DNA of 64,000 nt. Source: Vulcanimicrobiota bacterium. GTDB lineage: Bacteria; Vulcanimicrobiota; Vulcanimicrobiia; Eremiobacterales; Eremiobacteraceae. The stretch covers positions 640,001 through 704,000 of the forward strand of contig CAWDVP010000002.1 of assembly GCA_963805945.1 (NCBI GenBank), written 5' to 3'. Below, piece by piece: positions 16,895 through 43,912 of the stretch. Numbering within the stretch: position 1 is the first letter of the stretch; the number at the start of each line of letters is the position of its first letter. Both the position numbers and the translations under genes were made by a program. The notes beneath the pieces were generated by a model. The model had not been told where the DNA came from. It ran no database searches and saw only the letters and a program-made list of their open reading frames with translations.

Positions 16895-18104
16895 CTACGC
16901 GGCCTCCATGTTCTCGATGACGAGCGAACCGCCCTGACCGCCGCCGACGCACATCGTCACCAGACCGTAGCGTTTGCCGCTGCGGCGCATCTCGAAGACG
17001 AGCGTCGTGGTGAGGCGCGAACCGGTCGCGCCGATCGGGTGGCCTAAGGCGATCGCGCCGCCGTTGACGTTGACGATGCTGCGATCGAGCTCCATGAGCT
17101 TCTCGCAGGCGAGGTACTGCGCGGCGAACGCCTCGTTGAACTCGATGAGCTGGATGTCGTCGAGCGTGATGCCGGCGCGTTGCAGCGCTTTGGGCGTCGC
17201 CACCGTCGGTCCGAGGCCCATCGTCTTGGGGTCGCAGCCGGCGAACGCGTACGAGAGGATGCGCGCGATCGGCTTCAGGCCCAGTTCGCGCGCCTTCGCC
17301 GCGCTCGCGACGATGAGCGCCGCACCCGCGTCGTTGATCGGGCACGAGTTGCCCGGCGTCACCGTGCCGCCTTTCTTGAAGACGGTGGGATAGAGCGCGA
17401 GCTTCTGCACCGAGAGACCTGCCTGCGGCCCCTCGTCCTTGGCGACGGTCTCAGGCTCGCCGTGCTTCTTTGGCACTTGCACGTGCACGAGCTCGTCTGC
17501 GAACTTGCCGGTGCGCTGCGCGCGAAACGCTTTGTTGTGGCTCTCGACCGCGAGCTGGTCCTGCTGCTCGCGCGTGATGCCGAACTCTTCGGCGAGCACT
17601 TCGGCCGTCTGGCCCATGAGCATGCCGGTGTGATGATCGGTGAGCCCGGTCCAGATCGGGTCGAGCATCTCCGCCGGGCGCAGCCGCGCGCCCCAACGCG
17701 CCGACGGGATGATGTATGGCGCCATCGATTGGTTCTCAGTGCCGCCGACGAGATAGACGTCGCCGTCGCCTGAGGCGATGGCTTGCACCGCGTTGGCGAT
17801 CGATTGCACGCCGCTCGCGCAATTGCGCTGCACGCTGTACGCCGGGCGTGCCGATCGGGATGCCGACCTCGAGCGAGATCTGACGCGCGATGTTGGCGAA
17901 CTCGATGGGCTGGCCGCCGCTGCCGATGATGACTTCGTCGATGTGCTCGACGCCGATGCCCGCACGTTCGATCGCCGCCTTGGCGGCGGTGGTGCCGAGC
18001 TGGAGGGCGTCGTATTCACGATACGCGCCGCCGAAGTTGCCGACGGGCGTGCGCGCCGCGCTGAGGATGACCGTGTCGCGGTCGTTCAAGGATCCGTTCT
18101 TCAC
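16895..18104 (-). CDS. Acetyl-CoA acyltransferase (thiolase), apparent frameshift near 17845
   Basis: N-terminus SAARTPVGNFGG in one frame; QRNCASG, EFNEAFA, NGGAIALGHPIGATG, MCVGGGQG in another. Confidence 0.93.
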
Positions 18105-31657: not shown

Positions 31658-32338
31658 CTACAAGCGCACGTAGGGCGCGAGGCGGTCGAACTTCGACGGC
31701 CCGATGCCCGGCACGTTCTGCAGATCGTCGATGGTCTGGAACGGGCCGTTCTGCTGGCGGAAATCGACGATGCGCCGCGCCAAGCCCGGACCGACACCGG
31801 GCAGCTGCACGAGTTGCTCTTCGCCGGCGGTGTTGACGTCGAGCGTCTGTCCCGGCGCCAATTTGTTGGCGCCTCGTCCGCCGTGCGATCTGCTATGACG
31901 CGAGCGATGCACGGGTACGCCGGTATCGGCGGTGTACGGGCCTGAGTCAGTCGCGATGGTCTGGCCTTTGTGCGGCACGGTCACCTTCATCGCGTCGCGC
32001 AAGGGTTCGGCCAGGTTGATCTGATCCATGTCGGCATCCGCCGACTCGCCGCCGGCCTGTTTGACCGCGTCGACGACGCGGGCGCCCGGCGCGAAAAGGT
32101 AGACGCCGGCGCGCTTCACCGCGCCGCACACGTAGACCGCGAGTTCGCTCGGCGACGGGCTCGCGGCATCGGGCGAAATGCCGGGGCTCGGAAAGCCGTG
32201 CGCGTCGGCGACCAGTGTCGGCGGCACTGTGGCCTCGGCCGCAAGCGGGTGTGGCGCGCCCGCCGGCCGCGGCAGCATGAATCCGGCGGCGACGGCGACC
32301 GCCGCGCCGCCGATGAGCCAACGTCGATCGAATTGCAT
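31658..32338 (-). CDS. comEA: Competence DNA-binding protein ComEA
   Basis: N-terminal TM, SLBB domain VYVCGAVKRAGVY...RVVDAVKQAGG, HhH LPGVGPGLARRIV...VPGIGP. Confidence 0.93.
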   Translation of the reverse strand: MQFDRRWLIGGAAVAVAAGFMLPRPAGAPHPLAAEATVPPTLVADAHGFPSPGISPDAASPSPSELAVYVCGAVKRAGVYLFAPGARVVDAVKQAGGESADADMDQINLAEPLRDAMKVTVPHKGQTIATDSGPYTADTGVPVHRSRHSRSHGGRGANKLAPGQTLDVNTAGEEQLVQLPGVGPGLARRIVDFRQQNGPFQTIDDLQNVPGIGPSKFDRLAPYVRL

Positions 32339-32401
32339 CGTGGCCACGCCGGACACATCCCGCGAACGCGGGGCCGCGTCAAGGGCTTCATCGCGAGCCT
32401 A

Positions 32402-32410
32402 TGGTACAAT
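32402..32410 (+). promoter_or_regulatory. Extended -10 element, possibly leaderless leuS transcript
   Basis: TGGTACAAT ends 7 nt before the leuS ATG; no SD visible. Confidence 0.55.
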
Positions 32411-32417
32411 TGCCCCG

Positions 32418-34899
32418 ATGGCTGAGACACCGATTCCGCCGTACGAACCGCAGGCGATCGAACCGAAATGGCAACGCGCGTGGGCGCAGCGCGGCCAGAA
32501 CGAGATCCACGAAGATCCCACGCGGCCGAAATTCTACCTGCTCGAGATGCTGCCGTACCCGAGCGGCGATCTCCACGTCGGCCACGCGCGCAACTACACC
32601 CTCGGCGACGTCATCGGCCGCTATTGGCGCATGCGCGGCCGCAACGTGATGCACCCGATGGGCTGGGACGCCTTCGGCCTGCCCGCCGAAGGCGCCGCCA
32701 TCCAGCGCGGCATCCACCCGGCCGACTGGACCGAGACGAACATCGCGAACATGCGCCGCCAGCTGCAAGGGCTGGGCATCGCCTACGACTGGTCGCGCGA
32801 GATCGACACGTCATCGCCGGAATACTACCGCTGGACGCAGTGGCTGTTCTTGTTCATGCACCGCAAGGGGCTCGCGTATAAGAAGGAAGCGCCGGTCAAC
32901 TGGTGCCCGACCGACCAGACGATCCTCGCCAACGAGCAGGCCGAAGGCGGCGTCTGCTGGCGCTGCGGTTCGCGTGTCGAGCAGCGCATGGTCAACCAAT
33001 GGTTCTTCAAGACGACGGCGTACGCCGATCGGCTGCTCGAGGGGCTCGATCGCCTCGAGCATTGGCCGGAGCGCGTCAAGACGATGCAGCGCAATTGGAT
33101 AGGACGCAGCGAGGGCGTCACGTTCTCGTTCGAAGTCGGCAACGCGGCGCTTTCGACGTTCACCACGCGGCTCGACACGATCTTCGGCGTCACGTTCATC
33201 GCCGTCGCGCTCGACCATCCGCTCGTCGCGTCGTTCACCGCCGGTACGTCGAAAGAGGCTGCGCAGGTGCGACGAGTTCGTCGACGGACTGAAAAGCAAG
33301 AACGAGCTCGAGCGCACGATGATGGAGAAGCTCGGCGTCTTCTCCGGCGCGCACGCGCGCCATCCGCTCACCGGCGAGCGCATCCCCATCTGGGTCACCA
33401 ACTACGTGCTCAGCAGCTACGGTTCTGGCGCGGTCATGGGCGTGCCGGCGCACGATCAGAGAGATTTCGAGTTCGCCCATAAATACCGCATCGACGTGAA
33501 GACGGTGGTGACGCCGCCCGGCCAGCCGGATTTCGTCGCGCGCGATGCCGCATATGTCGACGATGGCGTGCTCGTGCGCTCGCAAGATTTCGACGGCCTG
33601 GCAAGCGCGCAAGCGCGCAAAGCGATCGCCGAACTGCTCATCGAGCGCGGCATCGGCGAGGAGACCGTCAACTACCGCTTGCGCGATTGGCTGATCTCCC
33701 GCCAGCGCTACTGGGGCGCGCCGCTTCCGTTCGTCAATTGCCCGACCCACGGGCTCGTGCCCGTGCCGGAGGACCAGTTGCCGGTGCTGCTGCCGTACGA
33801 CGTGCCGATCACCGGCGTGCAAGGCAGTCCGCTCGCGCAAGTGCCGTCGTTCGTGAACACGACCTGTCCGATCTGCGGCGGTCCCGCCACGCGCGAGACC
33901 GACACCATGGACACGTTCATGTGCTCGTCATGGTATTTCTTGCGCTACCTGAGCCCGCACGACGACAAAGAGCCATGGAGCAAAGAGGCTGCGTCATACT
34001 GGGCGCCGGTCGACCACTACATCGGCGGTATCGAGCACGCGGTCATGCATCTCATGTACGCCCGCTTCTTCTACAAGGTGCTCCACGATGACGGCCTCGT
34101 GCCCGAGGACGAGCCCTTCAAGCGGCTCTTCAATCAGGGGTTCGTGCTGGGCGAGAACAACGAGAAGATGAGCAAGTCGCGCGGCAACGTCGTGGGCATC
34201 GACGAGACGGCCGATCGCTACGGCGTCGACGCGCTGCGCGTTTTCGAGATGTTCGCCGGACCGCCCGACGGGGATTACCCTTGGTCGACGACCGGCATCG
34301 CCGGCGCCACCCGCACGCTGCACCGCGTGTGGAAGCTCGTGCTCGCGCATGCGAACGCGCTGCAACGGCCGCCGCCCGCGGGGCAGGGGGACGGCGTCGC
34401 GGATGCCGGCTTACGCTTCAGCGTCCATGCTAAGATCAAACAGGTGACCGATGAGATCGGCGACCGCATGCATCTCAATACGTGCGTCGCCGCGATCATG
34501 ACCTTGCTCAACGACCTCGAGGCGTACGCGGCCGCGCACGAGCACCCGTCGCAGTCGAGCGCTTTCGCCGAGGGTCTGCGCGCGCTACTGCTGTTGCTCG
34601 CGCCGTTCGCGCCGCACATCACCGAGGAGCTGTGGGAGCGCACAGGGCATAGCGGCAGCATCCATCTCGAAGCGTGGCCGCGCTATGAAGAGGCCGCGCT
34701 CGCGCGCAGCCTCATCCCGTTCGTGATCCAGGTGAACGGCAAACACCGCGGCACGATCGAGGCGGCGCCCGGCTCGAGCGAGGACGCCGTCTTCGAACGC
34801 GCGACGAAGGTGACGACGGTGAGCGCTCAGCTCGACGGCAAGAAGGTCCGCAAGCGGATCTTCGTGCCGGACAAGCTGCTCAATATCGTCGTCGCGTAG
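32418..34899 (+). CDS. leuS: Leucine--tRNA ligase, apparent frameshift near 33270
   Basis: MLPYPSGDLHVGH (HIGH), MQRNWIGRSEG, GAVMGVPAHDQRD, DWLISRQRYWG, KMSKS. Confidence 0.96.
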
Positions 34900-34905
34900 C
34901 GGACC

Positions 34906-35385
34906 TTACTTGGTGGCCTTCACCATGTTCATGCTCTCCGGACCCATGCCCGTGATCTGGAGGATCACTTCGCCCTTCGATTGGGCGTAGTGGTGCAGGT
35001 TCGGGGGAATCGAGACGAACGAACCGGCGGGCAGTGCCGTCATCTTCGCCGCGTTCCACGTATCGCCGAGACCGACGAGGAATGTGCCGCTGAGTATGGT
35101 CACCTGCTCGGTGTTCGTGTGCCAATGCGCCGGGAACTTGACGCCGTTATCAAGTTTGTAGCGCATGACGTACACGCCGGTCTTGGTCGGATCGCCGTAC
35201 AACACGGCGGTTGATACGCCTTTCATCTGGGGATACGGCGTCCACTTGACCGAACCGGCCGGCACCACCGTCGGCGTCATGGCCGCGTTCATCATCGCCG
35301 GCCCTGACGCCGCCGAGCGTGCGACCGACGTCAGGCCCACGAACACAAATGCCAGCGCGACGCAGAATAGAAAAGTCTTCTTCAT
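34906..35385 (-). CDS. Secreted cupin-domain protein (DUF4437-like)
   Basis: GGAGG RBS, signal peptide, LYGDPTKTG, PAHWHTNTEQVTILSG, HHYA. Confidence 0.85.
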   Translation of the reverse strand: MKKTFLFCVALAFVFVGLTSVARSAASGPAMMNAAMTPTVVPAGSVKWTPYPQMKGVSTAVLYGDPTKTGVYVMRYKLDNGVKFPAHWHTNTEQVTILSGTFLVGLGDTWNAAKMTALPAGSFVSIPPNLHHYAQSKGEVILQITGMGPESMNMVKATK

Positions 35386-35485
35386 CTGAAGCAACCTCCG
35401 GAACGCCACGGACAGACCCGTGGCGCAGCATGAGAACATTTGGTGCTTGGACACGCAGGGCACCTCCCCCGCGCAGGACCGGGCT

Positions 35486-36431
35486 TTAGCGCTTGGGCGC
35501 GCGACCCTTGAAGAAGTCGACGGTCTTGGCGATGCCCGCCGTCATCCCCACGCTCGGCTGCCAGCCGAGGACTGTCCTAGCTTTCTCGATCGCGAAGACG
35601 CATGTGCGTATATCGCCCGCCCGCTTCGGCGCGTGCTCCACTTCGACGTCGCGACCGGCGGCGGCTGCGATCGTCGCGTGCAGAGCGTTCACCGACGTGC
35701 CGACGCCGCCGCCGATGTTGATCGCCTCGTCGTCGGCGGCGTCGAGCGCCAAGATGTTCGCGCGCGCGACGTCGGCGACGTAGACGTAGTCGCGCGTCTG
35801 CTCGCCATCCCAATCGATGCGGACGCCGTGCGCGACGAGAACTTCGCGGCGAAGATCGCGATGACGCCCGCTTCGCCGTTGGGATCCTGGCGCGGTCCGT
35901 AGACGTTGCCGTAGCGCAACGCCGTGAAATCCAGGCCCGATCGTTGCGTAATAGCGCAGGTAATGCTCGCCGACCATCTTCGTGATGCCGTACGGCGATT
36001 CGGGCAGCTGCGGAGTATCGCCTCGTCGATCGGCAGGCTACTCCGGCTTGCCGTAGGTCGCGACGCTGAGGCGAAGATGATCTTGCGCGCGCCGGTCGTG
36101 CGCACGGCGACTTCGAGCACGTTGAGCAGTGCCGCGAGACGTTGACGTCGCGAGTCGTAGCGCGGGTCGCGCACGGTCGAGATCGCGACGCTGAGTGCTG
36201 CGCGGCGTGATGGCTCACGATCTCCGGCTGGAAGCCGTCGAAGATCCGGCCAGCGCTTCGTCGCGGATGTCGCCTGTCGCGAAGCGGCGCCTGCGGACAC
36301 GTTCTCGCGCCGGCCGCCGCCGTGCTCCCACAGGCTGTCGACGGCGAGCGACATCGTGCCCGGCGGCGACGATAGGCATCGACGACGTGCGAGCCGATGA
36401 AGCCGGCGCCGCCGGTGACGAGGATGCGCAC
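35486..36431 (-). CDS. NAD-dependent epimerase/dehydratase (GalE-like), multiple frameshifts
   Basis: MRILVTGGAGFIGSHVVD; LRYGNVYGPRQDPNGEAGVIAIF; GEQTRDYVYVADVARAN in different frames. Confidence 0.9.
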
Positions 36432-36443
36432 GTCTACGCGCGC

Positions 36444-36512
36444 TTAGAGGGTCAGGTGACCGCTGACCAACAGCAGGATCAGGATCAAAACGACGATGAT
36501 GAAGGTCGTCAC
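36444..36512 (-). CDS. 22-aa hydrophobic peptide, GHLxL family copy A
   Basis: AAGGAG SD, GTG start, MTTFIIVVLILILLLVSGHLTL, TAA; paralogous to 36552 and 42083. Confidence 0.8.
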   Translation of the reverse strand: MTTFIIVVLILILLLVSGHLTL

Positions 36513-36551
36513 GGATACCACTCCTTCCGTTTTGGTGATCTCGTCACGAGA

Positions 36552-36620
36552 TCAGAGATGCAGATGGCCGGCGACCGCCAGCAAGATCAAGATGAGCAGC
36601 GCGATGATGGCCCAAGTCAC
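36552..36620 (-). CDS. 22-aa hydrophobic peptide, GHLxL family copy B
   Basis: GAGGAGG SD, GTG start, MTWAIIALLILILLAVAGHLHL, TGA. Confidence 0.8.
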   Translation of the reverse strand: MTWAIIALLILILLAVAGHLHL

Positions 36621-36676
36621 GTCATGTCCCTCCTCGGACTAGACAGCGGACTGTCTGGACTTGCTTGTTCCCTCAA

Positions 36677-36692
36677 TCGAACATGTGTTCCT
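36677..36692. promoter_or_regulatory. Gram-positive-type LexA (SOS) box
   Basis: TCGAAC-ATGT-GTTCCT matches CGAAC-N4-GTTCG with one mismatch; between peptide pair and comEC. Confidence 0.7.
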
Positions 36693-36710
36693 ATCCGCCT
36701 TCTGAGGCTT

Positions 36711-36736
36711 GGAACGGTCGAATTCATTCGACCGTC
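36711..36736. repeat. REP-like palindrome of the GGAG family (GGAA variant)
   Basis: GGAACGGTCGAATTCATTCGACCGTC; core identical to 2896-2915. Confidence 0.75.
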
Positions 36737-36780
36737 GGGGAGCTGGACACCGAGCGATGTGGGTGGGACAGTGAAGTGTC

Positions 36781-39216
36781 GTGCACATCGCGGACACCCT
36801 GGCGCGCGGCCATCTTCTCGCGATGGCTTTCGCCGCCTACGCGCTTGGCATCATCGCCGCCGCTCATCACGTGCCGTTGCTGGCGAACGCGAGCATTGCG
36901 CTCGCGCTCGGCGTCATTCTACCCGGCGCTTTCGCCCTTGAAACGCACCTGCGTCGCGCCGCGTTGCTGTGCGCGGCCTGCTTGGCCGGTGGAGCAGCGG
37001 CGGCGATCGCCGCCGAGCATCATAGTCAAGCGCTAGGGCTCGACGCGCTCGACGGCAAGCACGTCGTCTGCGAGGTGGTCGCGCTGGAGCGCCCGCGTCC
37101 ATCGTCGTCTGGCCTGTCCGTCCGGGTCCGCATAGAGCAGGTCGCATCGACTGCCGGCCCGGCTGCCCGCTTGCGCGGCGTGGGCGCTGTGCTCGAGATG
37201 CCCGAGTCGAGCGAGGCACGCCGATTCGCCGGACAGCTGCTGCGGATCCGTGCGCGCATCGGCGTGCCGTCGGGGCCGCGCAACGAGGGCGAGCCGGCGG
37301 AACGCGACCAGCTCGCGGAGCAAGGCGTGACCCTCGTGCTCGTCGCGCAGCGTCCGCGCGACGTCGCGCCGCTCGGCGCAGCTGTAGGTTGGCAGGCGTG
37401 GTGGGCGCGGCTGCGTTCGCGCTTCGCCGCTGCGGTCGAGTCGCGTCTGCCGCCGCTAGAAGCGACCGTGCTCGAGGGCGTGCTGTGGGGCGATCGGGGC
37501 GAACTGCCCGCCGCGCTGCGCCAAGAGTTCTCGGACACCGGCGCCGTGCATGTGCTCACCACCGCGGGCCTGCACTTGGGCATCATGGCGGCGCTCGTCG
37601 CCGCGTTGCTGCTGCAGACGCCATTGCCGCGACCCGCTCGCTCCGCGCTCGTGATCGCGGCCGGTTGGGCGTACGCGATGCTCGCGGGCATGCATCTGCC
37701 GACGCTGCGCGCCGCCACGATGCTCACCGCAGGTATGCTCGCGGTCGAAAGCGGGCGCGGCCGCACCGCGTCGGCGGTGCTAGCCGCCGCGGCGTTCTCC
37801 GTGACGCTCGTCCATCCGCTCGCGCTGCTGTCGCCATCGTTCTCGATGTCGTTCGCCTGTGTCGGCGGCATCGCGCTGCTCAGCCCGGCGCTGAGCGCGC
37901 TCGGTCTGCGCGGCGGCGAGTGGTTGCCGCACTGGATGGCGGAGCTGGTGCGAACCGGCCTGTGCGTCCAGCTCGCGCTGTGGCCGTTGCAGGCGCTGTA
38001 CTTCAATGCGTTCACGCCGTATGCGGTGGCCGCCAATCTCGTCGTCGTGCCGATGGTCGGCTTCGTCATGGCGACGGGCACCGCGTATGCCGGCGCGGCG
38101 TTGTTCTTCGCGCCGCTCGCGCAGCCGCTCGGCAATCTCACCTGGTGGTGTCTCACCGCGCTCATCGCCGCGGTCGAACGGTTCGCTGAGCTGCCGTTCG
38201 CGCACGTCGACGTACCGCCGCCGAGCCACGCGTTCCTCGTCGCCTATTGGCTCGCGCTTGCGGCGTTCGCTCGCGCGGCGCACGCGGGCGTCGCATGGCG
38301 GCATATCGTGAAAGTCGGCATTCCCGCGGCGCTGGCTCTCGCACTCGTCTACTGCGCGCCGGGCATCGCCGCTGCGCTTGATCCGCGTTTGCACCTCGAC
38401 GCCATCGACGTCGGACAAGCTGACTGCCTGCTCGTGCGCGCACCCGGCATGCACGCGATGCTGGTGGATGGCGGCGGCAAGCTAGAACGCGGCGGCGGCG
38501 CTGTGGTCGCGCAGCCCATCGGCGATCGCATCGCGGCGCGCACCGTCATGCCGTTTCTGCTGCGGCATTGGGTGCTGCATCTCGATGCAGTCGTGCTGAC
38601 GCATCCGCATGGCGACCACGCCGGCGGTCTGCCGGTCATCCTCGCACGGGAGCGGGTCGGTGCGCTCTATGACTCCGCGCAGCTCTACGGCGGCCCGGCA
38701 TATCAACGCGCGCTGGAGATCATGCGCGAGAAAGGCATCCCTTGGTTAGCAGCGCGGCGCGGCACGCGCTTCGATCTCGGGCCGCAGACGCACGTCGTCG
38801 TCCTCGCACCCGAGCTGCCGCTCATCACCGGCACGAGTTCGGATATCAACAACAATTCCGTCGTCCTGCGGGTGGAGTTCGGCCGCACTGCGCTGCTGCT
38901 CACCGGGGACGCCCAATCGGAAGCCGAGGTTCGGCTGCTCTCGCACGGTGGCGGCGATTTACGCGCCGACATCCTCAAGGTCGGCCATCACGGGAGCGCG
39001 TATTCATCGACGCCGGAATTCTTGGCCGCCGTCCGCCCGAAGATCGCGCTCATCTCGTGCGGCAGGCACAACGTGTTCGGCCACCCAAGCCCGGGGACAC
39101 TGGACGCGCTCCGCGCCGAAGGCGCCGCGATATACCGCACGGATACGGATGGCGGCATTTCGATCGAGACCGATGGCGCGAGCATCGAAACGAAGACGGC
39201 CGCCGCACCGGAATAA
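36781..39216 (+). CDS. comEC: DNA uptake competence protein ComEC/Rec2
   Basis: HVLTTAGLHLG, PTLRAATM, IDVGQAD, LTHPHGDHAGG, NNNSVVL, LKVGHHGS, FGHPS. Confidence 0.95.
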   Translation: MHIADTLARGHLLAMAFAAYALGIIAAAHHVPLLANASIALALGVILPGAFALETHLRRAALLCAACLAGGAAAAIAAEHHSQALGLDALDGKHVVCEVVALERPRPSSSGLSVRVRIEQVASTAGPAARLRGVGAVLEMPESSEARRFAGQLLRIRARIGVPSGPRNEGEPAERDQLAEQGVTLVLVAQRPRDVAPLGAAVGWQAWWARLRSRFAAAVESRLPPLEATVLEGVLWGDRGELPAALRQEFSDTGAVHVLTTAGLHLGIMAALVAALLLQTPLPRPARSALVIAAGWAYAMLAGMHLPTLRAATMLTAGMLAVESGRGRTASAVLAAAAFSVTLVHPLALLSPSFSMSFACVGGIALLSPALSALGLRGGEWLPHWMAELVRTGLCVQLALWPLQALYFNAFTPYAVAANLVVVPMVGFVMATGTAYAGAALFFAPLAQPLGNLTWWCLTALIAAVERFAELPFAHVDVPPPSHAFLVAYWLALAAFARAAHAGVAWRHIVKVGIPAALALALVYCAPGIAAALDPRLHLDAIDVGQADCLLVRAPGMHAMLVDGGGKLERGGGAVVAQPIGDRIAARTVMPFLLRHWVLHLDAVVLTHPHGDHAGGLPVILARERVGALYDSAQLYGGPAYQRALEIMREKGIPWLAARRGTRFDLGPQTHVVVLAPELPLITGTSSDINNNSVVLRVEFGRTALLLTGDAQSEAEVRLLSHGGGDLRADILKVGHHGSAYSSTPEFLAAVRPKIALISCGRHNVFGHPSPGTLDALRAEGAAIYRTDTDGGISIETDGASIETKTAAAPE

Positions 39217-39238
39217 GAAGTCGAAGGAACTAGGAACA

Positions 39239-40388
39239 ATGCCTACACGCATAGTGGTGCTCGGCGCCGGCTTCGGAGGACTCGAGCTGACGACGATCCT
39301 TTCGGATGCGTTCGGCGACGGACTCGATCTCGTGCTCATCGACAAGAGCGACGCGTTCGTCTTCGGCTTCTCGAAGCTCGACGTCATGTTCGGACGGATC
39401 GAGCTCGCGCAGGTGCGCCACCCATATCGCGACGTCGTCAAACCAGGTGTGCGGTTCGTCCAGACGACGGTGCGCTCCATCGACCCAGCCGCGCGGCGCG
39501 TGAAGACCGACGCGGGGACGTTCGACGCGGACGTCCTCGTCGTCGCGCTCGGCGCGGATTACGACATCGCGGCGACGCCCGGGCTCGCGCAAGGCAACGA
39601 GTTCTACTCGATCGCGGGCGCGAATCGCGCTGCGCGACGTTTTGCCGCGCTTCGAGCGCGGCACGGCGATCATCGGCGTGACCTCGACGCCGTACAAATG
39701 CCCGCCGGCGCCAAGCGAGGCGGCGTTTCTGCTGCACGACTACCTCACCACGCGCGGCCGGCGCGCCGCGGTCGATATCTCGGTGGTGATCCCGTTCGGC
39801 CGGCCCATTCCCCCGTCGCCTGACACCTCGAAGGCGATTCTCGCCGGCTTCGCCGAGCGCAACATCCGCTGGGTCCCCGAGCGCGAGGTGAGCGCTCTCG
39901 ACCCGAACCGAAAGGTCGCGATGTTGGACGACGGCACGGAGATGCCGTACGACTTGTTCCTCGGCGTGCCCGTGCATCGGGTGCCGAAGGTCGTCGAGGA
40001 ATCCGGCCTGGCCGTCGACGGCTGGGTACCGGTGAATCCCAAGACGCTGGAGACGCGCTTTCCGGGAGTCTATGCCGTCGGCGACGTGGCGCTCGTGGGC
40101 ACGCCGAAGGCCGGCGTGTTCTCGGAGGGCCAAGCGCGCGTGGTGGCGGCGGAGATCACCGCGCAACTCAAAGGCGGTCCGTCAGCACAGCCCTACTCGG
40201 GGATCGGCGCGTGCTACATCGAGTTCGGCGGCGATGTCGTCGGGCGAGTCGTGGTGGATTTCTTCAGCGGCCCTGAACCGACGGGTACGTTTGACGCGCC
40301 GTCCGCGGCGCTCGTCGCAGACAAGGCGGAGTTCGGCTCCAGCCGCATCGCGCGCTGGTTCTCACGACCGCACGACGCGCGCGGCTGA
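39239..40388 (+). CDS. FAD-dependent oxidoreductase, sulfide:quinone reductase/FCC-like, frameshift near 39625
   Basis: IVVLGAGFGG, YKCPPAPSEAA, VYAVGDV, PKAGVFSEGQA, ACYIEFG. Confidence 0.85.
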
Positions 40389-40412
40389 TCTGCTAGAAAG
40401 ATCTGGAAGACT

Positions 40413-41165
40413 ATGCTGCAAGCAGGATCACCCGCACGCGATGCGACGCGCATCGTACCGCTTATGGGTCTCGCAGGCGCGCTGCGAGCCGTGCCCAGCG
40501 CGAAGCTCACCTATCGCGGCGGCCCGCTCATCGCCAACGCCGAAGTGACCACCGTCTTCTGGGGCGGGTGGTGGCTCAAAGCGCCGCAGGCCGACATCGT
40601 CACGCGCCTCAACAAGTTCTTCGACGACATCTTGGTGAGCGCGCTCATGGACCAACTCGCAGAATATAGCGTGCCGGGCACCGCGATCGGCCACGGCAAG
40701 CGCGTCGCGACCGCAACGGTCGATACCGCGCCGCCGGCGACGGTCGATGACGCGGGCATCACCTCGTTCCTGCAAGGGCTGATCGCCGCGAAGAGCGTGC
40801 CGGCCGCCAACGCCAACTCGATCTATTTCGTGTACTTGCCCTCCGGCGTCAGCGTGACGATGGGCGGCCAGGCGTCATGCAGCTCGTTCTGCGGCTATCA
40901 CGACATCATCGGAGGGAAGATCGCGTACGCGGTCGAGCCGTACCCCGATTGCACAGGCTGTATGGGCGGTCTTGCGGCGTTCGACGCCCTCACGGTCACC
41001 TCGTCGCACGAGTTGTGCGAGGCGGTGACCGATCCCGTCCCCGGTCACGGCTGGTACGATGATGTCAACGGCGAGATCGGCGACATTTGCGCCTGGCAGT
41101 TCAAGAAGGTCGCCGCCTACACCGTGCAGCTCGAATGGTCCAACAAGGCCGGCGCCTGCGTGTGA
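40413..41165 (+). CDS. Hypothetical protein, EXORDIUM/Phi-1-like zincin candidate (start uncertain)
   Basis: LTYRGGPLI, FCGYH, SHELCEAVTDP, GWYD, GEIGDIC. Confidence 0.6.
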   Translation: MLQAGSPARDATRIVPLMGLAGALRAVPSAKLTYRGGPLIANAEVTTVFWGGWWLKAPQADIVTRLNKFFDDILVSALMDQLAEYSVPGTAIGHGKRVATATVDTAPPATVDDAGITSFLQGLIAAKSVPAANANSIYFVYLPSGVSVTMGGQASCSSFCGYHDIIGGKIAYAVEPYPDCTGCMGGLAAFDALTVTSSHELCEAVTDPVPGHGWYDDVNGEIGDICAWQFKKVAAYTVQLEWSNKAGACV

Positions 41166-41192
41166 GCGGCCGGCCCTAGTCGGAGGATGCGG

Positions 41193-41945
41193 CTATCTCA
41201 CCACGACGGTGAGGGACATGTTGTTATGCCCGACGCCGCACTCGATCGCGCAGTGGATGACGTACGTCCCCACGGTCCTCGGCGTAAAGGTCACGCGCAC
41301 GGGTTGACCCGGTCTGATCGTCGTGAGCGGGATGCCGAGCGCGTCCGATTGGATGCCGTGCACGCCTGAAGTTGAGGTCAATCGCAGCGTCTCTGGTGTG
41401 CCGACGGCGATGGTGATCGTGTTCGGCGTGAACTGCCAGTCGGATGCGACGATGTTGGTCAGATTGCTGACCGTCGGAGTCGCGGTCGGCGGAGGAACTG
41501 CCGATGCCGGCGCTCCGGCCGAGGCCACGGTCACCGTCTGCGAGTTATCGTCATAGTTGACGCTCGCTCCGAGCGCTTCGGAGATGAACCGCAGCGGCAC
41601 CAACGTGCGCGCGCCGACCAAGAACGGGGCGACGTCGAGCGTGGTCGGCTGACCGTTCACGGTCGCCGTCGTCGAGCCGATATGCAATTGGATGTTGCGG
41701 CCGTTGCCGGTGGCGTTGATCGCGCCGTTGTCGTAGACGACGCTCGCGCCCAGGCGCTCGAAGACGCCGCGCAGCGGCACGAAGACCCGCCCGCTTCGCT
41801 CGATCGGCGGCTGATCGAACGTCATCGCCTGGCCGTTGACGACGATGCGCACGTCGGCCAAGGCCGGTGCCGATGAGAATAAGCCGAGGATCAGACTGAG
41901 AAACAAGACTCCGGTGACGAGCGTGAGAAAACGAAGGATTCGCAT
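41193..41945 (-). CDS. Secreted copper-amine-oxidase N-terminal (stalk) domain plus CuA-type cupredoxin
   Basis: GRVFVPLRGVFERLGA, RTLVPLRFISEALGA; GVHG and HCAIECGVGHNNM. Confidence 0.85.
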   Translation of the reverse strand: MRILRFLTLVTGVLFLSLILGLFSSAPALADVRIVVNGQAMTFDQPPIERSGRVFVPLRGVFERLGASVVYDNGAINATGNGRNIQLHIGSTTATVNGQPTTLDVAPFLVGARTLVPLRFISEALGASVNYDDNSQTVTVASAGAPASAVPPPTATPTVSNLTNIVASDWQFTPNTITIAVGTPETLRLTSTSGVHGIQSDALGIPLTTIRPGQPVRVTFTPRTVGTYVIHCAIECGVGHNNMSLTVVVR

Positions 41946-42036
41946 ATGATGCCTCTTTCTGATAGAGGCATACCCAATTCTGAGGCGCGGCAACCAGGTC
42001 TAATCGTGCATTCGGCTCGCGGCGGGCGTGTTGCGA

Positions 42037-42067
42037 CACGGCCGACCTTTGGGTCGGCCGTGCCTAC
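42037..42067. repeat. GTAG-headed REP-like hairpin, possible terminator of peptide copy C
   Basis: Minus strand GTAGG-CACGGCCGACC-CAAA-GGTCGGCCGTG; 11-bp perfect stem. Confidence 0.7.
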
Positions 42068-42082
42068 GACCGGTCGAGGGGT

Positions 42083-42151
42083 TTAGAGCTTGAGGTGTCC
42101 GGTCACCGCGAGTAGGATCAAGACCAGTAAGACGACGACGAGAACGTCCAT
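42083..42151 (-). CDS. 22-aa hydrophobic peptide, GHLxL family copy C
   Basis: AAGGAGGT SD, ATG start, MDVLVVVLLVLILLAVTGHLKL, TAA. Confidence 0.82.
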   Translation of the reverse strand: MDVLVVVLLVLILLAVTGHLKL

Positions 42152-42190
42152 GTGCGATCCACCTCCTTGATAGATAGGATCGCTATGCTT

Positions 42191-42216
42191 ATACCCGCTT
42201 TGCGCCGCGATTAAAC
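42191..42216 (-). promoter_or_regulatory. SigB/SigF-type stress promoter
   Basis: GTTTAA-N14-GGGTAT, matching the B. subtilis SigB consensus, 39 nt upstream of peptide C. Confidence 0.75.
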
Positions 42217-42222
42217 CCCTGC

Positions 42223-42747
42223 TCACTTGCCGCTATGGCCCGCAAATCGGACTTGCGCCACCAGGGCGTTGAGGGCCGCTGCGGAGGACGCCGAGATGCC
42301 GCGCGCCGCCAAGATCGCCAGCGACGCGTAGTGGGAAGAATCGAGCTTGACGAGCACGAGTCGCATGTCGATCACGACGCCTCTGTCGTTGCTCATCGTC
42401 GTGATGAACGCTTCACCGGGGATGCCCGCGATGGATCCAGGCTCGCTCTTCGTGTACGGGGCTGCGCCCGCGGCCTTGATGATCTTCACCGCGACCTCGG
42501 GCGCCGTCGCCGTGGCGACCGATGGATCGACGATAAACGATAACAGCAGCGCGCTGGATCTGTCGTCTGCGGTGACGCGCATGTTGCCGAAGTTGTCCTG
42601 CGCCGATGACCAGCCGGTCGGCAGATCGAAGGCATAGGCCGGAGTGCCGGTGGCGGGGAAGCGTATCGAGTCGGCGCGCGCTCCGGAGATGCCCAACACC
42701 GTCAGGCCGAGCAGTACGAACAAGATCGCAGAGCTGGTGCGGATCAT
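42223..42747 (-). CDS. Secreted hypothetical protein
   Basis: AGGAG RBS, signal peptide ending ARA, FDLPTGW motif. Confidence 0.75.
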   Translation of the reverse strand: MIRTSSAILFVLLGLTVLGISGARADSIRFPATGTPAYAFDLPTGWSSAQDNFGNMRVTADDRSSALLLSFIVDPSVATATAPEVAVKIIKAAGAAPYTKSEPGSIAGIPGEAFITTMSNDRGVVIDMRLVLVKLDSSHYASLAILAARGISASSAAALNALVAQVRFAGHSGK

Positions 42748-42871
42748 CGGTCACTCCTGATGCGGCGGCGCAACGAAACGGCTTCGAGCCGCGTTTGCGG
42801 TTTGAGAAGCCTTCTCTCTTCTTATTCACGGCTCTTCGCGCCGTGATGTGACCTTGAAAGGTCGGAACTCG

Positions 42872-43912
42872 ATGAAGCTCCCCGCTCGCAGCCTTGTCGC
42901 CGCGCTTTCGCTCGGCGTGCTGCTCGTCCTGAGCAGGCAACCGGCGGCTGCTGCGACGGCCTACCTCACGCTGTCGGGTCCCAACCCGTTCAACGGCACG
43001 TGCCCGGCCACGCTCAACTTCACCGGCCATATCGACGGCCCCGCCAGCTCGAGCGTCACGTACAACTTCGCCTGGTTCACCAATGGCGCGTGGTTCCGCC
43101 CCGCCGCCGTCACCGCCACGATCCCGGCAGGCGGCTCGCTGCCGTTGACGGGCGCCGTGACCGCCGACACCGCGCACCAAGGGCTGCAATCCTACGAGGT
43201 CGACATCTCTGCGCCGGCGGGCAGCGACAGCGCCACGCACGGCAAAGTGTTCTACACGGTCCATTGCTCGACGCTCGTCGCCGTGCCCACGACACCGCTC
43301 CCGCTGCGGCCGGTGATAGTGCTCCCCGTCTCCGCGAGCATCGCGTACTTCCGCGACGCGACGGGAGCCAACTTCATCTGCGGACGGTTGACGCACTACG
43401 GCACCATCCCGACGGATTTCGGCGGCGCGGTCGCCGTAGGGTACACCCATTCCCAGACAGGCGGTCCGAACGGCGACCCATGCGGCGTTCACGACGACGT
43501 CATCTACCGCATCATGCTCGCGTCGGGGTTTTCGGCGATTCACGGCCGGCTCAGTTCGGTCGTGCTCACCGCGACGCACACCGGCACCGACGCCAACACG
43601 GCGTGCAAGCTGGACGCGCTGACCCGAGTGTCCGGCGCGTTCCGCGAAGGCGACGTCCACGATGCGAGCGGCTTCTCCACCGCCACCGGCGTGTCGTGGT
43701 ACTCCTCGAATCCCACCTCGGTGCACTATCAGATCTATCCCACGACGGATCCCATCGCCGGCCCCGCCACCAACGCGCTGTTACAAGCGCTCTTCGGCGG
43801 CGGCGGCACGCTGCAGCTCATGCTGCGCGGGCCGAATGAGCACATCGACCGCGATAATCTGCGCTGCCTGCTCAAGTTCACGACCTTCAAGCTCAACGTC
43901 ATCGCGGGCTAA
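42872..43912 (+). CDS. Secreted beta-rich hypothetical protein (Ig-like N-domain candidate)
   Basis: Signal peptide, FNGTCPATLNFTGHI, paired Cys, Thr/Gly-rich. Confidence 0.7.
   Translation: MKLPARSLVAALSLGVLLVLSRQPAAAATAYLTLSGPNPFNGTCPATLNFTGHIDGPASSSVTYNFAWFTNGAWFRPAAVTATIPAGGSLPLTGAVTADTAHQGLQSYEVDISAPAGSDSATHGKVFYTVHCSTLVAVPTTPLPLRPVIVLPVSASIAYFRDATGANFICGRLTHYGTIPTDFGGAVAVGYTHSQTGGPNGDPCGVHDDVIYRIMLASGFSAIHGRLSSVVLTATHTGTDANTACKLDALTRVSGAFREGDVHDASGFSTATGVSWYSSNPTSVHYQIYPTTDPIAGPATNALLQALFGGGGTLQLMLRGPNEHIDRDNLRCLLKFTTFKLNVIAG

What the first reader, a model, noticed from the sequence alone, without database searches (positions are those of the whole stretch)
36444..42216. Candidate new system: three paralogous 22-aa GHLxL membrane peptides under SOS/stress-type control next to comEC
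Seen: MTTFIIVVLILILLLVSGHLTL (36512-36444), MTWAIIALLILILLAVAGHLHL (36620-36552) and MDVLVVVLLVLILLAVTGHLKL (42151-42083). All are exactly 69 nt, have strong SDs, and share LILLxVxGHLxL despite diverged codons, which points to protein-level selection. None is in the ORF track. A and B are tandem, 57 nt from a LexA-type box and divergent from comEC; C follows a consensus SigB-type promoter and precedes a strong hairpin. Known analogues: small hydrophobic toxins or division inhibitors (TisB, DinQ, SidA are LexA-controlled; Ibs is similar in size). From memory the tail also resembles the last helix of DUF3309 proteins, unverified. Inference: an undescribed family of stress-induced type-I-toxin-like, membrane-regulatory or signalling peptides, possibly linking DNA damage, dormancy and competence.
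Basis: partly seen in the sequence, partly recalled or inferred. Interest (0 to 1): 0.88.

Follow-up and report, generated by a model that had tools for sequence, protein, structure and literature searches.

The report
Conserved 22-residue membrane peptide gene family
Three tiny unannotated genes in this window belong to a real, uncatalogued family of 22-31-residue membrane peptides found in many copies across genomes of the uncultured soil phylum Eremiobacterota, probably stress-induced membrane helpers and not toxins.

Summary
Three 69-nt ORFs, A 36444-36512, B 36552-36620 and C 42083-42151, all lie on the minus strand. Each has a Shine-Dalgarno site and ends in G-H-L-x-L.

They are not chance. 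A truncated scan of species-representative genomes found 51 more copies in 23 assemblies. Seventeen of these are titled Eremiobacterota or Vulcanimicrobiota, and the other six share the same gene order. Start, ribosome site and stop are kept in all copies, and orthologues differ mostly by synonymous changes.

Pfam, NCBIfam, PDB and Rfam hold no match. Database relatives are unnamed hypothetical proteins.

In the window's clade the epimerase start follows the peptide stop by 7-12 nt, with no ribosome site of its own.

Stand-alone paralogues such as C carry a conserved SigB-type promoter, GTTT-N16-GGGTAT. The LexA-type palindrome is kept only in the two-peptide clade (6 of 24 genomes) and overlaps a promoter-like GGAAC element shared by all.

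Nothing supports a toxin-antitoxin or competence role. Best reading: stress-regulon single-pass membrane micro-proteins, a new family of a known kind.

The parts
36552..36620 (-). Peptide B ORF: GTG start, 22 codons plus TGA. First cistron of the operon.
   Evidence: Orthologues occupy the same place in 5 related assemblies.
36444..36512 (-). Peptide A ORF: GTG start, 22 codons plus TAA. Second cistron; its stop lies 12 nt before the epimerase GTG.
35486..36431 (-). GalE-like NAD-dependent epimerase/dehydratase gene downstream of A. In the window it is split over three reading frames by two frameshifts.
   Evidence: Pfam PF01370 pieces in three frames. Intact single-frame orthologues exist in relatives. 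A family ORF lies 7-71 nt upstream in 23 of 23 assemblies.
36655..36693 (-). Conserved promoter-like element upstream of B: GGAAC, about 15 nt, GG(G)AA, then AAGTCCAG.
   Evidence: Alignment of 24 upstream regions. Of the 23 rows with sequence at this place, 17 have GGAAC, 5 have GAAAC and 1 has GGAAG.
36679..36690 (.). LexA-type palindrome GAAC-N4-GTTC, overlapping the GGAAC element.
   Evidence: A near-identical 18-mer sits at the same place in the 5 two-peptide relatives. It is absent from the single-peptide loci.
42083..42151 (-). Peptide C ORF: ATG start, 22 codons plus TAA. Stand-alone gene.
   Evidence: Against the L050 orthologue, 10 codons differ synonymously and 0 non-synonymously.
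42191..42216 (-). SigB-type promoter GTTTAA-N14-GGGTAT upstream of C.
   Evidence: 1 site, 0.01 expected. In 280,622 bases of window plus related loci, 7 of 8 such sites lie within 80 nt upstream of a family ORF. The consensus is as given in passages of PMC9847131.
42035..42064 (-). 13-bp G+C-rich hairpin after C, a likely transcript end without a T-run.
   Evidence: -31.8 kcal/mol, z = -3.98. Not called by the terminator scan. Stand-alone paralogues in relatives are followed by hairpins with T-runs (sequences).
42152..42185 (-). 5' leader of C, with a hairpin that pairs part of the ribosome-binding site.
   Evidence: -14.3 kcal/mol, z = -3.94. One search shows a similar fold in L006 only, so it is not a family-wide feature.

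Best explanation
A, B and C are translated genes of an uncatalogued family of 22-31-residue single-pass membrane micro-proteins, found so far in Eremiobacterota/Vulcanimicrobiota.

Shown:
- The ORF, its ribosome site and its stop are kept in 54 of 54 copies from the window plus 23 assemblies.
- Orthologues differ mainly at synonymous sites.
- The last ten residues are almost invariant: L-I-L-L-A-V-T-G-H-L-(K/R/H/T)-L.
- One copy, or a tandem pair as in the window, always heads an operon with a GalE-like sugar-nucleotide epimerase next to comEC.
- Extra copies are monocistronic, with a SigB/SigF-type promoter and a hairpin.
- Still other copies overlap the stop codon of large exported BNR/sortilin-like proteins.

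Inferred:
- The peptide is one membrane-spanning helix. By the positive-inside rule, the acidic N-end faces out and the His-Leu-Lys/Arg-Leu end faces the cytoplasm.
- It is made at a basal level with the epimerase and is strongly induced by a general-stress sigma factor.
- It acts in the membrane without killing the cell. It probably uses the small-residue/His face (Ala15, Thr17, Gly18, His19) to pack against itself or a conserved membrane partner. This resembles other stress-induced small membrane proteins and the last helix of DUF3309.
- In the window's clade, translation of A probably also delivers ribosomes to the epimerase start, which lies 7-12 nt downstream and has no ribosome site.
- A LexA-like operator may additionally repress the operon promoter in that clade.
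For: Family and conservation:
- The genome scan returned 120 loci. 36 of them (23 assemblies) carry HMM-confirmed family ORFs, 1 carries a DUF3309 gene, and the other 83 lack a family ORF by the HMM, most of them being low-G+C loci.
- All 54 copies have a start codon and a purine-rich ribosome site. In 43 of 54 the site has a core of at least 4 nt. Lengths are 22 (35 copies), 23 (10), 24 (2) and 18, 26, 27 (1 each), 29 (4) residues.

Coding signal:
- Column entropy by codon position is 15.2, 3.5 and 25.1.
- Pooled pN/pS is 0.31 in frame, against 0.78 and 6.1 in the other sense frames and 0.55, 0.53 and 3.8 in the antisense frames.
- In 15 comparisons of the window's ORFs with orthologues, 140 codons differ synonymously and 56 non-synonymously. 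C against L050 gives 10 and 0.
- Codon 15, which the search pattern left free, is Ala in 42 of 53 copies and uses all four GCN codons.

Context:
- A family ORF lies 7-71 nt upstream of the epimerase in 23 of 23 assemblies. comEC is seen in the 17 whose locus reaches that far.
- 7 of 8 GTTT-N15-17-GGGTA[TA] sites lie within 80 nt upstream of a family ORF, in windows that make up 0.77% of the sequence searched.

Stands alone:
- A full HMMER search of 1.84 billion cluster representatives gave 47 hits at E <= 0.001. They are 25-151 residues long, and 46 of the 47 match at the extreme C-terminus. None was fused to a long protein with a second matched region, and no DUF3309 appeared.
- None of the family hits has a Pfam domain; the Pfam-bearing rows there are the DUF3309 proteins at E >= 0.004.
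Against: - There is no expression, translation or localisation data.
- The copies were found with a pattern that fixes 11 of the 22 codons, so part of the apparent purifying selection comes from how they were found. On the 8 pattern-free codons, pooled pN/pS across all paralogues is only 0.61.
- No partner protein is identified, and contexts other than the epimerase vary.
- The hydrophobic run is short, about 15-17 residues.
- It was not checked whether these genomes encode a SigB/SigF-type sigma factor.
- A toxic effect on overexpression cannot be excluded from sequence.
Confidence: 0.55

Rival explanations
1. Type-I-toxin-like or SOS-induced membrane-depolarising peptides. Stress or DNA damage switches them on, they damage the membrane, and growth stops.
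For: - Their size, hydrophobicity and tandem or multiple copies fit small toxins such as TisB, DinQ and Ibs (class features recalled, not tested).
- A LexA-type palindrome lies 58 nt upstream of B. A near-identical 18-mer is kept in the 5 two-peptide relatives. Its right half matches the Gram-positive LexA consensus given in passages of PMC2248561.
- The leader of C, and that of L006, pairs part of the ribosome site.
- One weak sigma-70-like site (9 of 12) lies on the antisense strand at 41923-41950 and points towards C (0.2 expected).
Against: - The family sits at one fixed syntenic place in 23 of 23 assemblies whose ComEC is only 60-71% identical to the window's. I recall type I toxins as patchy and fast-evolving.
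- The universal copy is co-transcribed with an epimerase, and in 8 genomes (6 of the two-peptide clade, plus L040 and L044) it lies 7-12 nt from the epimerase start.
- Other copies overlap the stop of 1000-residue exported proteins.
- No conserved antisense promoter or RNA family was found.
- The palindrome is missing from the 18 single-peptide assemblies.
- Pairing of the ribosome site is not conserved.
Confidence: 0.2
2. Cis-acting leader ORFs. What matters is the act of translating them, which loads ribosomes onto the downstream epimerase. The peptide product has no role of its own.
For: The epimerase start (TTG or GTG) lies 7-12 nt after the peptide stop, with no ribosome site of its own, in the window, L006, L050/51, L056, L072, L076, L040 and L044.
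Against: - The same peptide sequence is kept in monocistronic copies with their own promoter and terminator and no downstream gene.
- In 15 assemblies the gap is 39-71 nt, and the epimerase has its own purine-rich site.
- The amino-acid sequence, not only the reading frame, is conserved.
Confidence: 0.1
3. Precursors of exported hydrophobic signalling peptides, like the streptococcal SHP/ComS kind (recalled). The conserved C-terminal part would be the mature signal, possibly tied to competence through the neighbouring comEC.
For: - They are 22-31-residue unannotated hydrophobic ORFs with a variable N-end and a conserved C-end.
- They lie next to comEC, with comEA nearby at 31658-32356.
Against: - The C-end is almost invariant across the whole phylum. 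I recall pheromones diversifying between species.
- There are several paralogues per genome.
- No Rgg/ComR-type regulator or peptide exporter was seen beside them.
- They lack the basic N-end typical of such precursors.
Confidence: 0.05
4. Not genes at all: chance ORFs or a conserved RNA or DNA element.
For: They are very short and of low complexity, and no gene caller lists them.
Against: - The pattern has 0 matches in 100 shuffles of the window.
- Variation is highest at third codon positions and pN/pS is lowest in this frame of the six.
- Start, ribosome site and stop are kept in 54 of 54 copies.
- No Rfam family matches.
Confidence: 0.03

Closest known systems
DUF3309 (Pfam PF11752), about 50-residue membrane proteins of unknown function
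   Same: The last helix of DUF3309 ends in a similar hydrophobic run followed by (T/L)-G-(H/R/Y)-(L/I), often right at the C-terminus. One pattern hit, L084, is a DUF3309 protein (E = 7e-20) ending in T-G-H-L-N-F. Profile-profile comparison aligns 15 columns of that helix with probability 57% and pairwise E = 1e-4.
   Different: DUF3309 has two helices joined by an invariant W-G-Y-G-P-S-G-G loop, which the peptides lack. None of 46 family members hits PF11752 even at E <= 10. No DUF3309 protein reaches E <= 0.001 with the family profile in 1.84 billion representatives. The likeness could be convergence between hydrophobic helices.
Enterobacterial stress-induced small membrane proteins (YncL, YoaK and similar)
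   Same: One-helix proteins of about 30 residues linked to stress responses. They were the nearest named clusters in the ESM Atlas for the 31-residue family member P0145.
   Different: Atlas scores of 0.78 and 0.75 are below the 0.9 the tool treats as more than a lead. No sequence-level match exists. They occur in a different phylum and lack the G-H-L-x-L end.
LexA-controlled small hydrophobic toxins and type I toxins (TisB, DinQ, Ibs; properties recalled, listing of PMC3567139 and PMC8309996 seen)
   Same: Size, hydrophobicity, multiple or tandem copies, and a LexA-type box in one clade.
   Different: No antitoxin RNA was found. The family is conserved phylum-wide at a fixed locus, is operonic with an epimerase, and has an almost invariant C-terminal motif.
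SigB general-stress regulon genes of Bacillota
   Same: The promoter of C matches GTTTAA-N14-GGGTAT exactly, the Bacillus subtilis SigB consensus (passages of PMC9847131).
   Different: The organism is an Eremiobacterota, not a Bacillota member. Its sigma factor for this motif is unidentified, and no orthologous small gene is known in the Bacillus regulon.

Membership tests
DUF3309 (PF11752) | Scores above the Pfam gathering cut-off for PF11752 | tested here: not met
   0 of 46 members match PF11752 at E <= 10. The L084 control scores 71.3 bits.
DUF3309 (PF11752) | Two helices joined by the invariant W-G-Y-G-P-S-G-G loop, about 50 residues | tested here: not met
   The peptides are 22-31 residues with one hydrophobic run and no such loop.
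DUF3309 (PF11752) | Homology of the C-terminal helix | tested here: inconclusive
   hhalign gives probability 57% over 15 columns. These are low-complexity hydrophobic columns.
Type I toxin-antitoxin system | Small hydrophobic membrane peptide ORF | tested here: met
Type I toxin-antitoxin system | Overlapping or adjacent antisense RNA antitoxin | tested here: inconclusive
   No sigma-70-like site lies near A or B. One weak antisense site lies at 41923-41950 near C. No Rfam family matches. Downstream regions are not conserved apart from terminators. No transcript data exist.
Type I toxin-antitoxin system | Toxicity on overexpression | not testable with these tools
   Needs an experiment.
LexA (SOS) regulon | Operator matching the LexA motif of the organism | tested here: inconclusive
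   The window has GAACACATGTTC and relatives have GAAACATATGTTCG, against the Gram-positive consensus CGAACRNRYGTTYC. The LexA motif of this phylum is unknown, and the window holds no lexA or recA to calibrate it.
LexA (SOS) regulon | Operator conserved upstream of orthologues | tested here: not met
   It is kept in 6 of 24 genomes only (the two-peptide clade). The other 18 keep only GGAAC, apart from a relaxed half-match in L044.
SigB/SigF-type general stress regulon | Promoter matching GTTTAA-N12-17-GGGTAT at the right distance | tested here: met
   An exact match lies 39 nt upstream of C's start codon.
SigB/SigF-type general stress regulon | Promoter conserved upstream of relatives | tested here: met
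   7 of 8 sites in 280,622 bases lie within 80 nt upstream of family ORFs, in 7 genomes.
SigB/SigF-type general stress regulon | A cognate sigma factor in the genome, and induction by stress | not tested
Induction needs an experiment.

The most novel reading that the evidence does not exclude
The family is a new functional class of micro-protein, not just another membrane filler. The Gly-His is kept in every copy, including the 9 that the search pattern did not select, and it sits four residues after a conserved Ala at the cytoplasmic end of the helix. It could form a two-histidine cofactor or metal site between two peptides, as in the small subunits of cytochrome b559 (comparison recalled). 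Alternatively it could be the contact by which a stress-induced peptide switches a conserved envelope machine, such as ComEC or the glycan pathway fed by the co-transcribed epimerase. In one clade LexA would add a DNA-damage input.
Probability: 0.12. Interest if true: 0.85.

Novelty: new member of a known kind. Interest (0 to 1): 0.5.

Why it matters
Genes this short (69 nt) fall below the length limit of standard gene callers, so a whole conserved family has gone unseen in a phylum known almost only from metagenomes. It offers several things:
- A clean marker of a SigB-like general stress regulon in Eremiobacterota.
- An example of a micro-protein that heads a sugar-nucleotide epimerase operon and is probably translationally coupled to it.
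- A very short, nearly invariant C-terminal motif, A-V-T-G-H-L-K/R-L, that can be tested by mutation.

It also shows that a toxin label should not be given from size and hydrophobicity alone.

Tried and rejected
Searches that found nothing:
- Pfam and NCBIfam on the three peptides, and Pfam on 46 members. No hit was better than E = 0.7.
- PDB sequence search with the family profile: 0 hits at E <= 10.
- tblastn of C against plasmids: no match.
- Rfam on 35000-43500: only two sub-threshold chance hits.
- Full-text search for three 8-10-residue strings of the motif: 0 papers. Searches on DUF3309 (2 papers, listing only) and on Eremiobacterota with small proteins or competence gave nothing relevant.

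Tools that could not be used:
- Complex prediction, for four copies of a 31-residue member, was not available. Self-association therefore stays untested.
- Structure prediction was not run, because the window's peptides are under the 30-residue minimum.

Ideas considered and dropped:
- Branched-chain amino-acid attenuator leaders. The neighbouring leuS is on the other strand, and stand-alone copies have nothing downstream.
- Ribosome-site sequestration as a family feature. It is seen in the window and L006 only.
- A conserved hairpin between B and A. Its fold is no better than shuffles (z = -0.26), and it is absent in relatives.

Not checked:
Copy number per genome and the family's full range are therefore lower bounds.
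- The window's own genome was not among the loci returned.

Full report
**1. The observation**

A is 36512-36444 and B is 36620-36552, both starting with GTG. C is 42151-42083 and starts with ATG. Each is 22 codons plus a stop, and each is preceded by a strong purine-rich ribosome site.

A degenerate pattern for their shared last 14 codons plus stop matches only these three places in the window. It matched none of 100 shuffles. A family HMM over all six frames also finds only these three in the window.

comEC (36781-39216, +) is divergent from B and A. The window has 66% G+C.

**2. Is it a real family?**

Protein databases could not be queried with 22 residues.

Of the 120 loci:
- 83 lack a family ORF by the HMM; most are low-G+C chance matches, some with stops in the frame.
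- 1 (L084) is a DUF3309 gene.
- 36, from 23 assemblies, carry ORFs that an HMM built from the tails confirms.

Seventeen of the 23 assemblies are titled Eremiobacterota, Eremiobacteraceae or Vulcanimicrobiota. Six carry other titles: Acidiferrales, Proteobacteria (three), Binatus and unidentified. These six have the same gene order and similar identity to the window, so I take the titles to be binning labels and not evidence of a wider range. Vulcanimicrobiota is the NCBI name of this phylum.

Counting overlapping loci once, there are 54 copies including the window's three. They comprise 53 distinct DNA sequences.

**3. Coding evidence**

All 54 copies have a start codon and a purine-rich site at the right distance, and 43 of them have a core of at least 4 nt. 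Predicted lengths are 22 residues in 35 copies, 23 in 10, 24 in 2, 29 in 4, and 18, 26 and 27 in one copy each.

- Variation is concentrated at third codon positions. Summed column entropy is 15.2, 3.5 and 25.1 for positions 1, 2 and 3.
- Pooled pN/pS is 0.31 in the proposed frame. The other five frames give 0.78, 6.1, 0.55, 0.53 and 3.8.
- The window's ORFs, compared with their five positional orthologues each, show 140 synonymous and 56 non-synonymous codon differences in all. C against L050 has 10 synonymous differences and none non-synonymous.

There is a caveat. The search pattern fixed 11 of the 22 codons, so part of this signal comes from how the copies were found. On the 8 free codons, pooled pN/pS across all paralogues is 0.61.

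Three results do not depend on the pattern:
- Free codon 15 is Ala in 42 of 53 copies, spelled with all four GCN codons.
- Free codon 17 is Thr or Ser in 50 of 53 copies.
- Nine further copies that the pattern missed were found in the flanks by the HMM, and all nine keep G-H-L-x-L.

**4. What is known about such sequences**

Pfam and NCBIfam give nothing for the three peptides. Pfam gives nothing better than E = 0.7 for 46 members. PDB gives nothing, and Rfam gives nothing significant over the region.

I searched 5.8 billion proteins with a mixed profile of five DUF3309 rows and 35 peptide rows. About 70 short hits came back at E < 0.001. None of these family hits has a Pfam domain, and the only name any source gives is 'hypothetical protein'. 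I read the first 60 of them. They show the same C-terminal motif, many have over-extended N-termini, and there are N-extended subtypes of 26-31 residues.

A full HMMER pass over 1.84 billion cluster representatives with a peptide-only profile found 47 hits at E <= 0.001. In 46 of the 47 the match lies at the very C-terminus of a short protein, the exception being P0168, which runs on for 16 more residues. No hit was fused to a long protein with a second matched region, and no DUF3309 protein appeared.

Full-text search for three 8-10-residue strings of the motif found no paper.

**5.

tblastn with the window's proteins shows one conserved block: comEA, leuS, epimerase, then comEC. The peptide ORF or ORFs lie between the epimerase and comEC.

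In 23 of 23 assemblies a family ORF ends 7-71 nt upstream of a GalE-like NAD-dependent epimerase/dehydratase on the same strand. comEC is seen divergent in the 17 loci that reach that far. The epimerase scores best against GalE but below the cut-off.

Eighteen assemblies have one ORF there. Five assemblies and the window have a tandem pair, B-type then A-type.

In this two-peptide clade, and in L040 and L044, the epimerase start (TTG or GTG) lies only 7-12 nt after the peptide stop and has no ribosome site. This looks like translational coupling, which is an inference.

Other paralogues sit elsewhere:
- 26-29-residue forms overlap the stop codon of roughly 1000-residue BNR/sortilin-like proteins.
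- 22-residue forms stand alone.

**6. Regulation**

*SigB-type promoter.* Upstream of C is GTTTAA-N14-GGGTAT. This equals the Bacillus subtilis SigB consensus as quoted in passages of PMC9847131. Across 280,622 bases of the window plus related loci, 7 of 8 GTTT-N15-17-GGGTA[TA] sites lie within 80 nt upstream of a family ORF. Those windows cover 0.77% of the sequence searched. The sigma factor itself was not looked for.

*Transcript ends.* Stand-alone copies in relatives are followed by G+C-rich hairpins with T-runs. C has a strong hairpin without a T-run.

*Element upstream of the epimerase-linked copy.* All loci share GGAAC, about 15 nt, GG(G)AA and then AAGTCCAG. Of the 23 rows with sequence at this place, 17 have GGAAC, 5 have GAAAC and 1 has GGAAG.

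*LexA-type palindrome.* The palindrome (36679-36690) overlaps that GGAAC.
- By itself it is not significant in the window: 2 sites found against 0.96 expected.
- The 18-mer GGGAAACATATGTTCGAT, or a one-base variant, is kept at the same place in the five two-peptide relatives.
- Its right half matches the Gram-positive LexA consensus quoted in passages of PMC2248561, and its left half has two mismatches.
- The single-peptide loci lack it, apart from a relaxed half-match in L044.
- The window holds no SOS gene that could calibrate the phylum's LexA motif.

LexA control is therefore possible in one clade and unproven.

**7. Toxin, leader, signal or membrane helper?**

*Type I toxin.* I found no antisense promoter near A or B. 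Near C there is only one weak site, 9 of 12, at 41923-41950. The ribosome-site pairing seen in C's leader recurs only in L006. Fixed synteny across genomes whose ComEC is 60-71% identical, and co-translation with an epimerase, do not fit the usual picture of such toxins, which I recall and did not test.

*Pure leader role.* This fails to explain the same peptide being kept in monocistronic genes.

*Pheromone role.* This fits poorly with a motif that is invariant across the phylum.

*Best reading.* I therefore favour stress-regulon single-pass membrane micro-proteins whose conserved Ala-Val-Thr-Gly-His face contacts a partner or another copy. The ESM Atlas gave only low-score leads to enterobacterial stress-linked small membrane proteins, YncL at 0.78 and YoaK at 0.75. 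A test of self-association could not be run.

**8. Relation to DUF3309**

L084 is a true DUF3309 protein ending in T-G-H-L-N-F. DUF3309 proteins often end in (T/L)-G-(H/R/Y)-(L/I). Profile-profile comparison aligns 15 columns with probability 57%.

However, the peptides lack the defining loop and the first helix, and they fail the Pfam model. They are not members. Shared ancestry of the helix is open.

**9. Verdict**

This is a real, conserved and uncatalogued micro-protein family, so a new family within the known kind 'bacterial small membrane proteins'. Its function is unknown, and I commit to a stress-induced, non-lethal membrane role at 0.55. The SOS, toxin and competence framing is not supported beyond one clade-specific palindrome and conserved gene order.

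Noticed in passing
window 32178-34899, 35486-36431, 38948-40388, 16895-18104: Several genes are split between reading frames: leuS (one frameshift), the epimerase (two), a Pyr_redox_2 oxidoreductase (one) and probably a thiolase. Relatives have single intact frames for leuS and the epimerase. The window therefore carries many indels, either assembly errors or pseudogenes. The three peptide ORFs are intact.
   Followed up: partly
window 41970-41995 (-): A second SigB-like promoter, GGTTGC-N14-GGGTAT, lies just upstream of the gene for a secreted-looking protein with Cu_amine_oxidN1 and cupredoxin-like domains (about 41945-41193). C therefore has a neighbour that may share its regulon.
   Followed up: partly
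L050:1824-1892, L056:5178-5246, L076:5176-5244: A fourth, more divergent 22-residue paralogue type lies directly after the C-type gene in three relatives, with its own GTTT-N16-GGGTAT promoter and terminator. The window has no copy at that place.
   Followed up: partly
L026:4965-5045, L047:5001-5090 (-), also L061 and L079: N-extended paralogues of 26-29 residues start at or overlap the stop codon of a roughly 1000-residue BNR/sortilin-like protein gene. One or two SigB-promoter 22-residue copies follow them, and TonB-dependent receptor genes lie nearby.
   Followed up: partly
window 31658-32356 (-): A ComEA-like gene (SLBB plus helix-hairpin-helix domains) lies on the far side of leuS from comEC. 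This comEA, leuS, epimerase, peptide, comEC order recurs in relatives.
   Followed up: partly
L004, L022, L035/L114/L115, L037, L056, L071/L085: Six assemblies titled Acidiferrales, Proteobacteria, Binatus or unidentified have the same synteny as the Eremiobacterota-titled ones and 62-67% ComEC identity to the window. Their titles look like mislabelled bins.
   Followed up: no
L006:4940-4973: The leader of the C-type copy in L006 holds a perfect hairpin in which CCTCC pairs with the GGAGG ribosome site. The window's C leader also pairs part of its ribosome site. Other orthologues do not.
   Followed up: partly
window 41711-41845 (+): A weak, sub-threshold Rfam match to the radC RNA motif (25.2 bits against a gathering score of 40, E = 0.11), inside the Cu_amine_oxidN1 gene on the opposite strand. 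It is probably chance.
   Followed up: no
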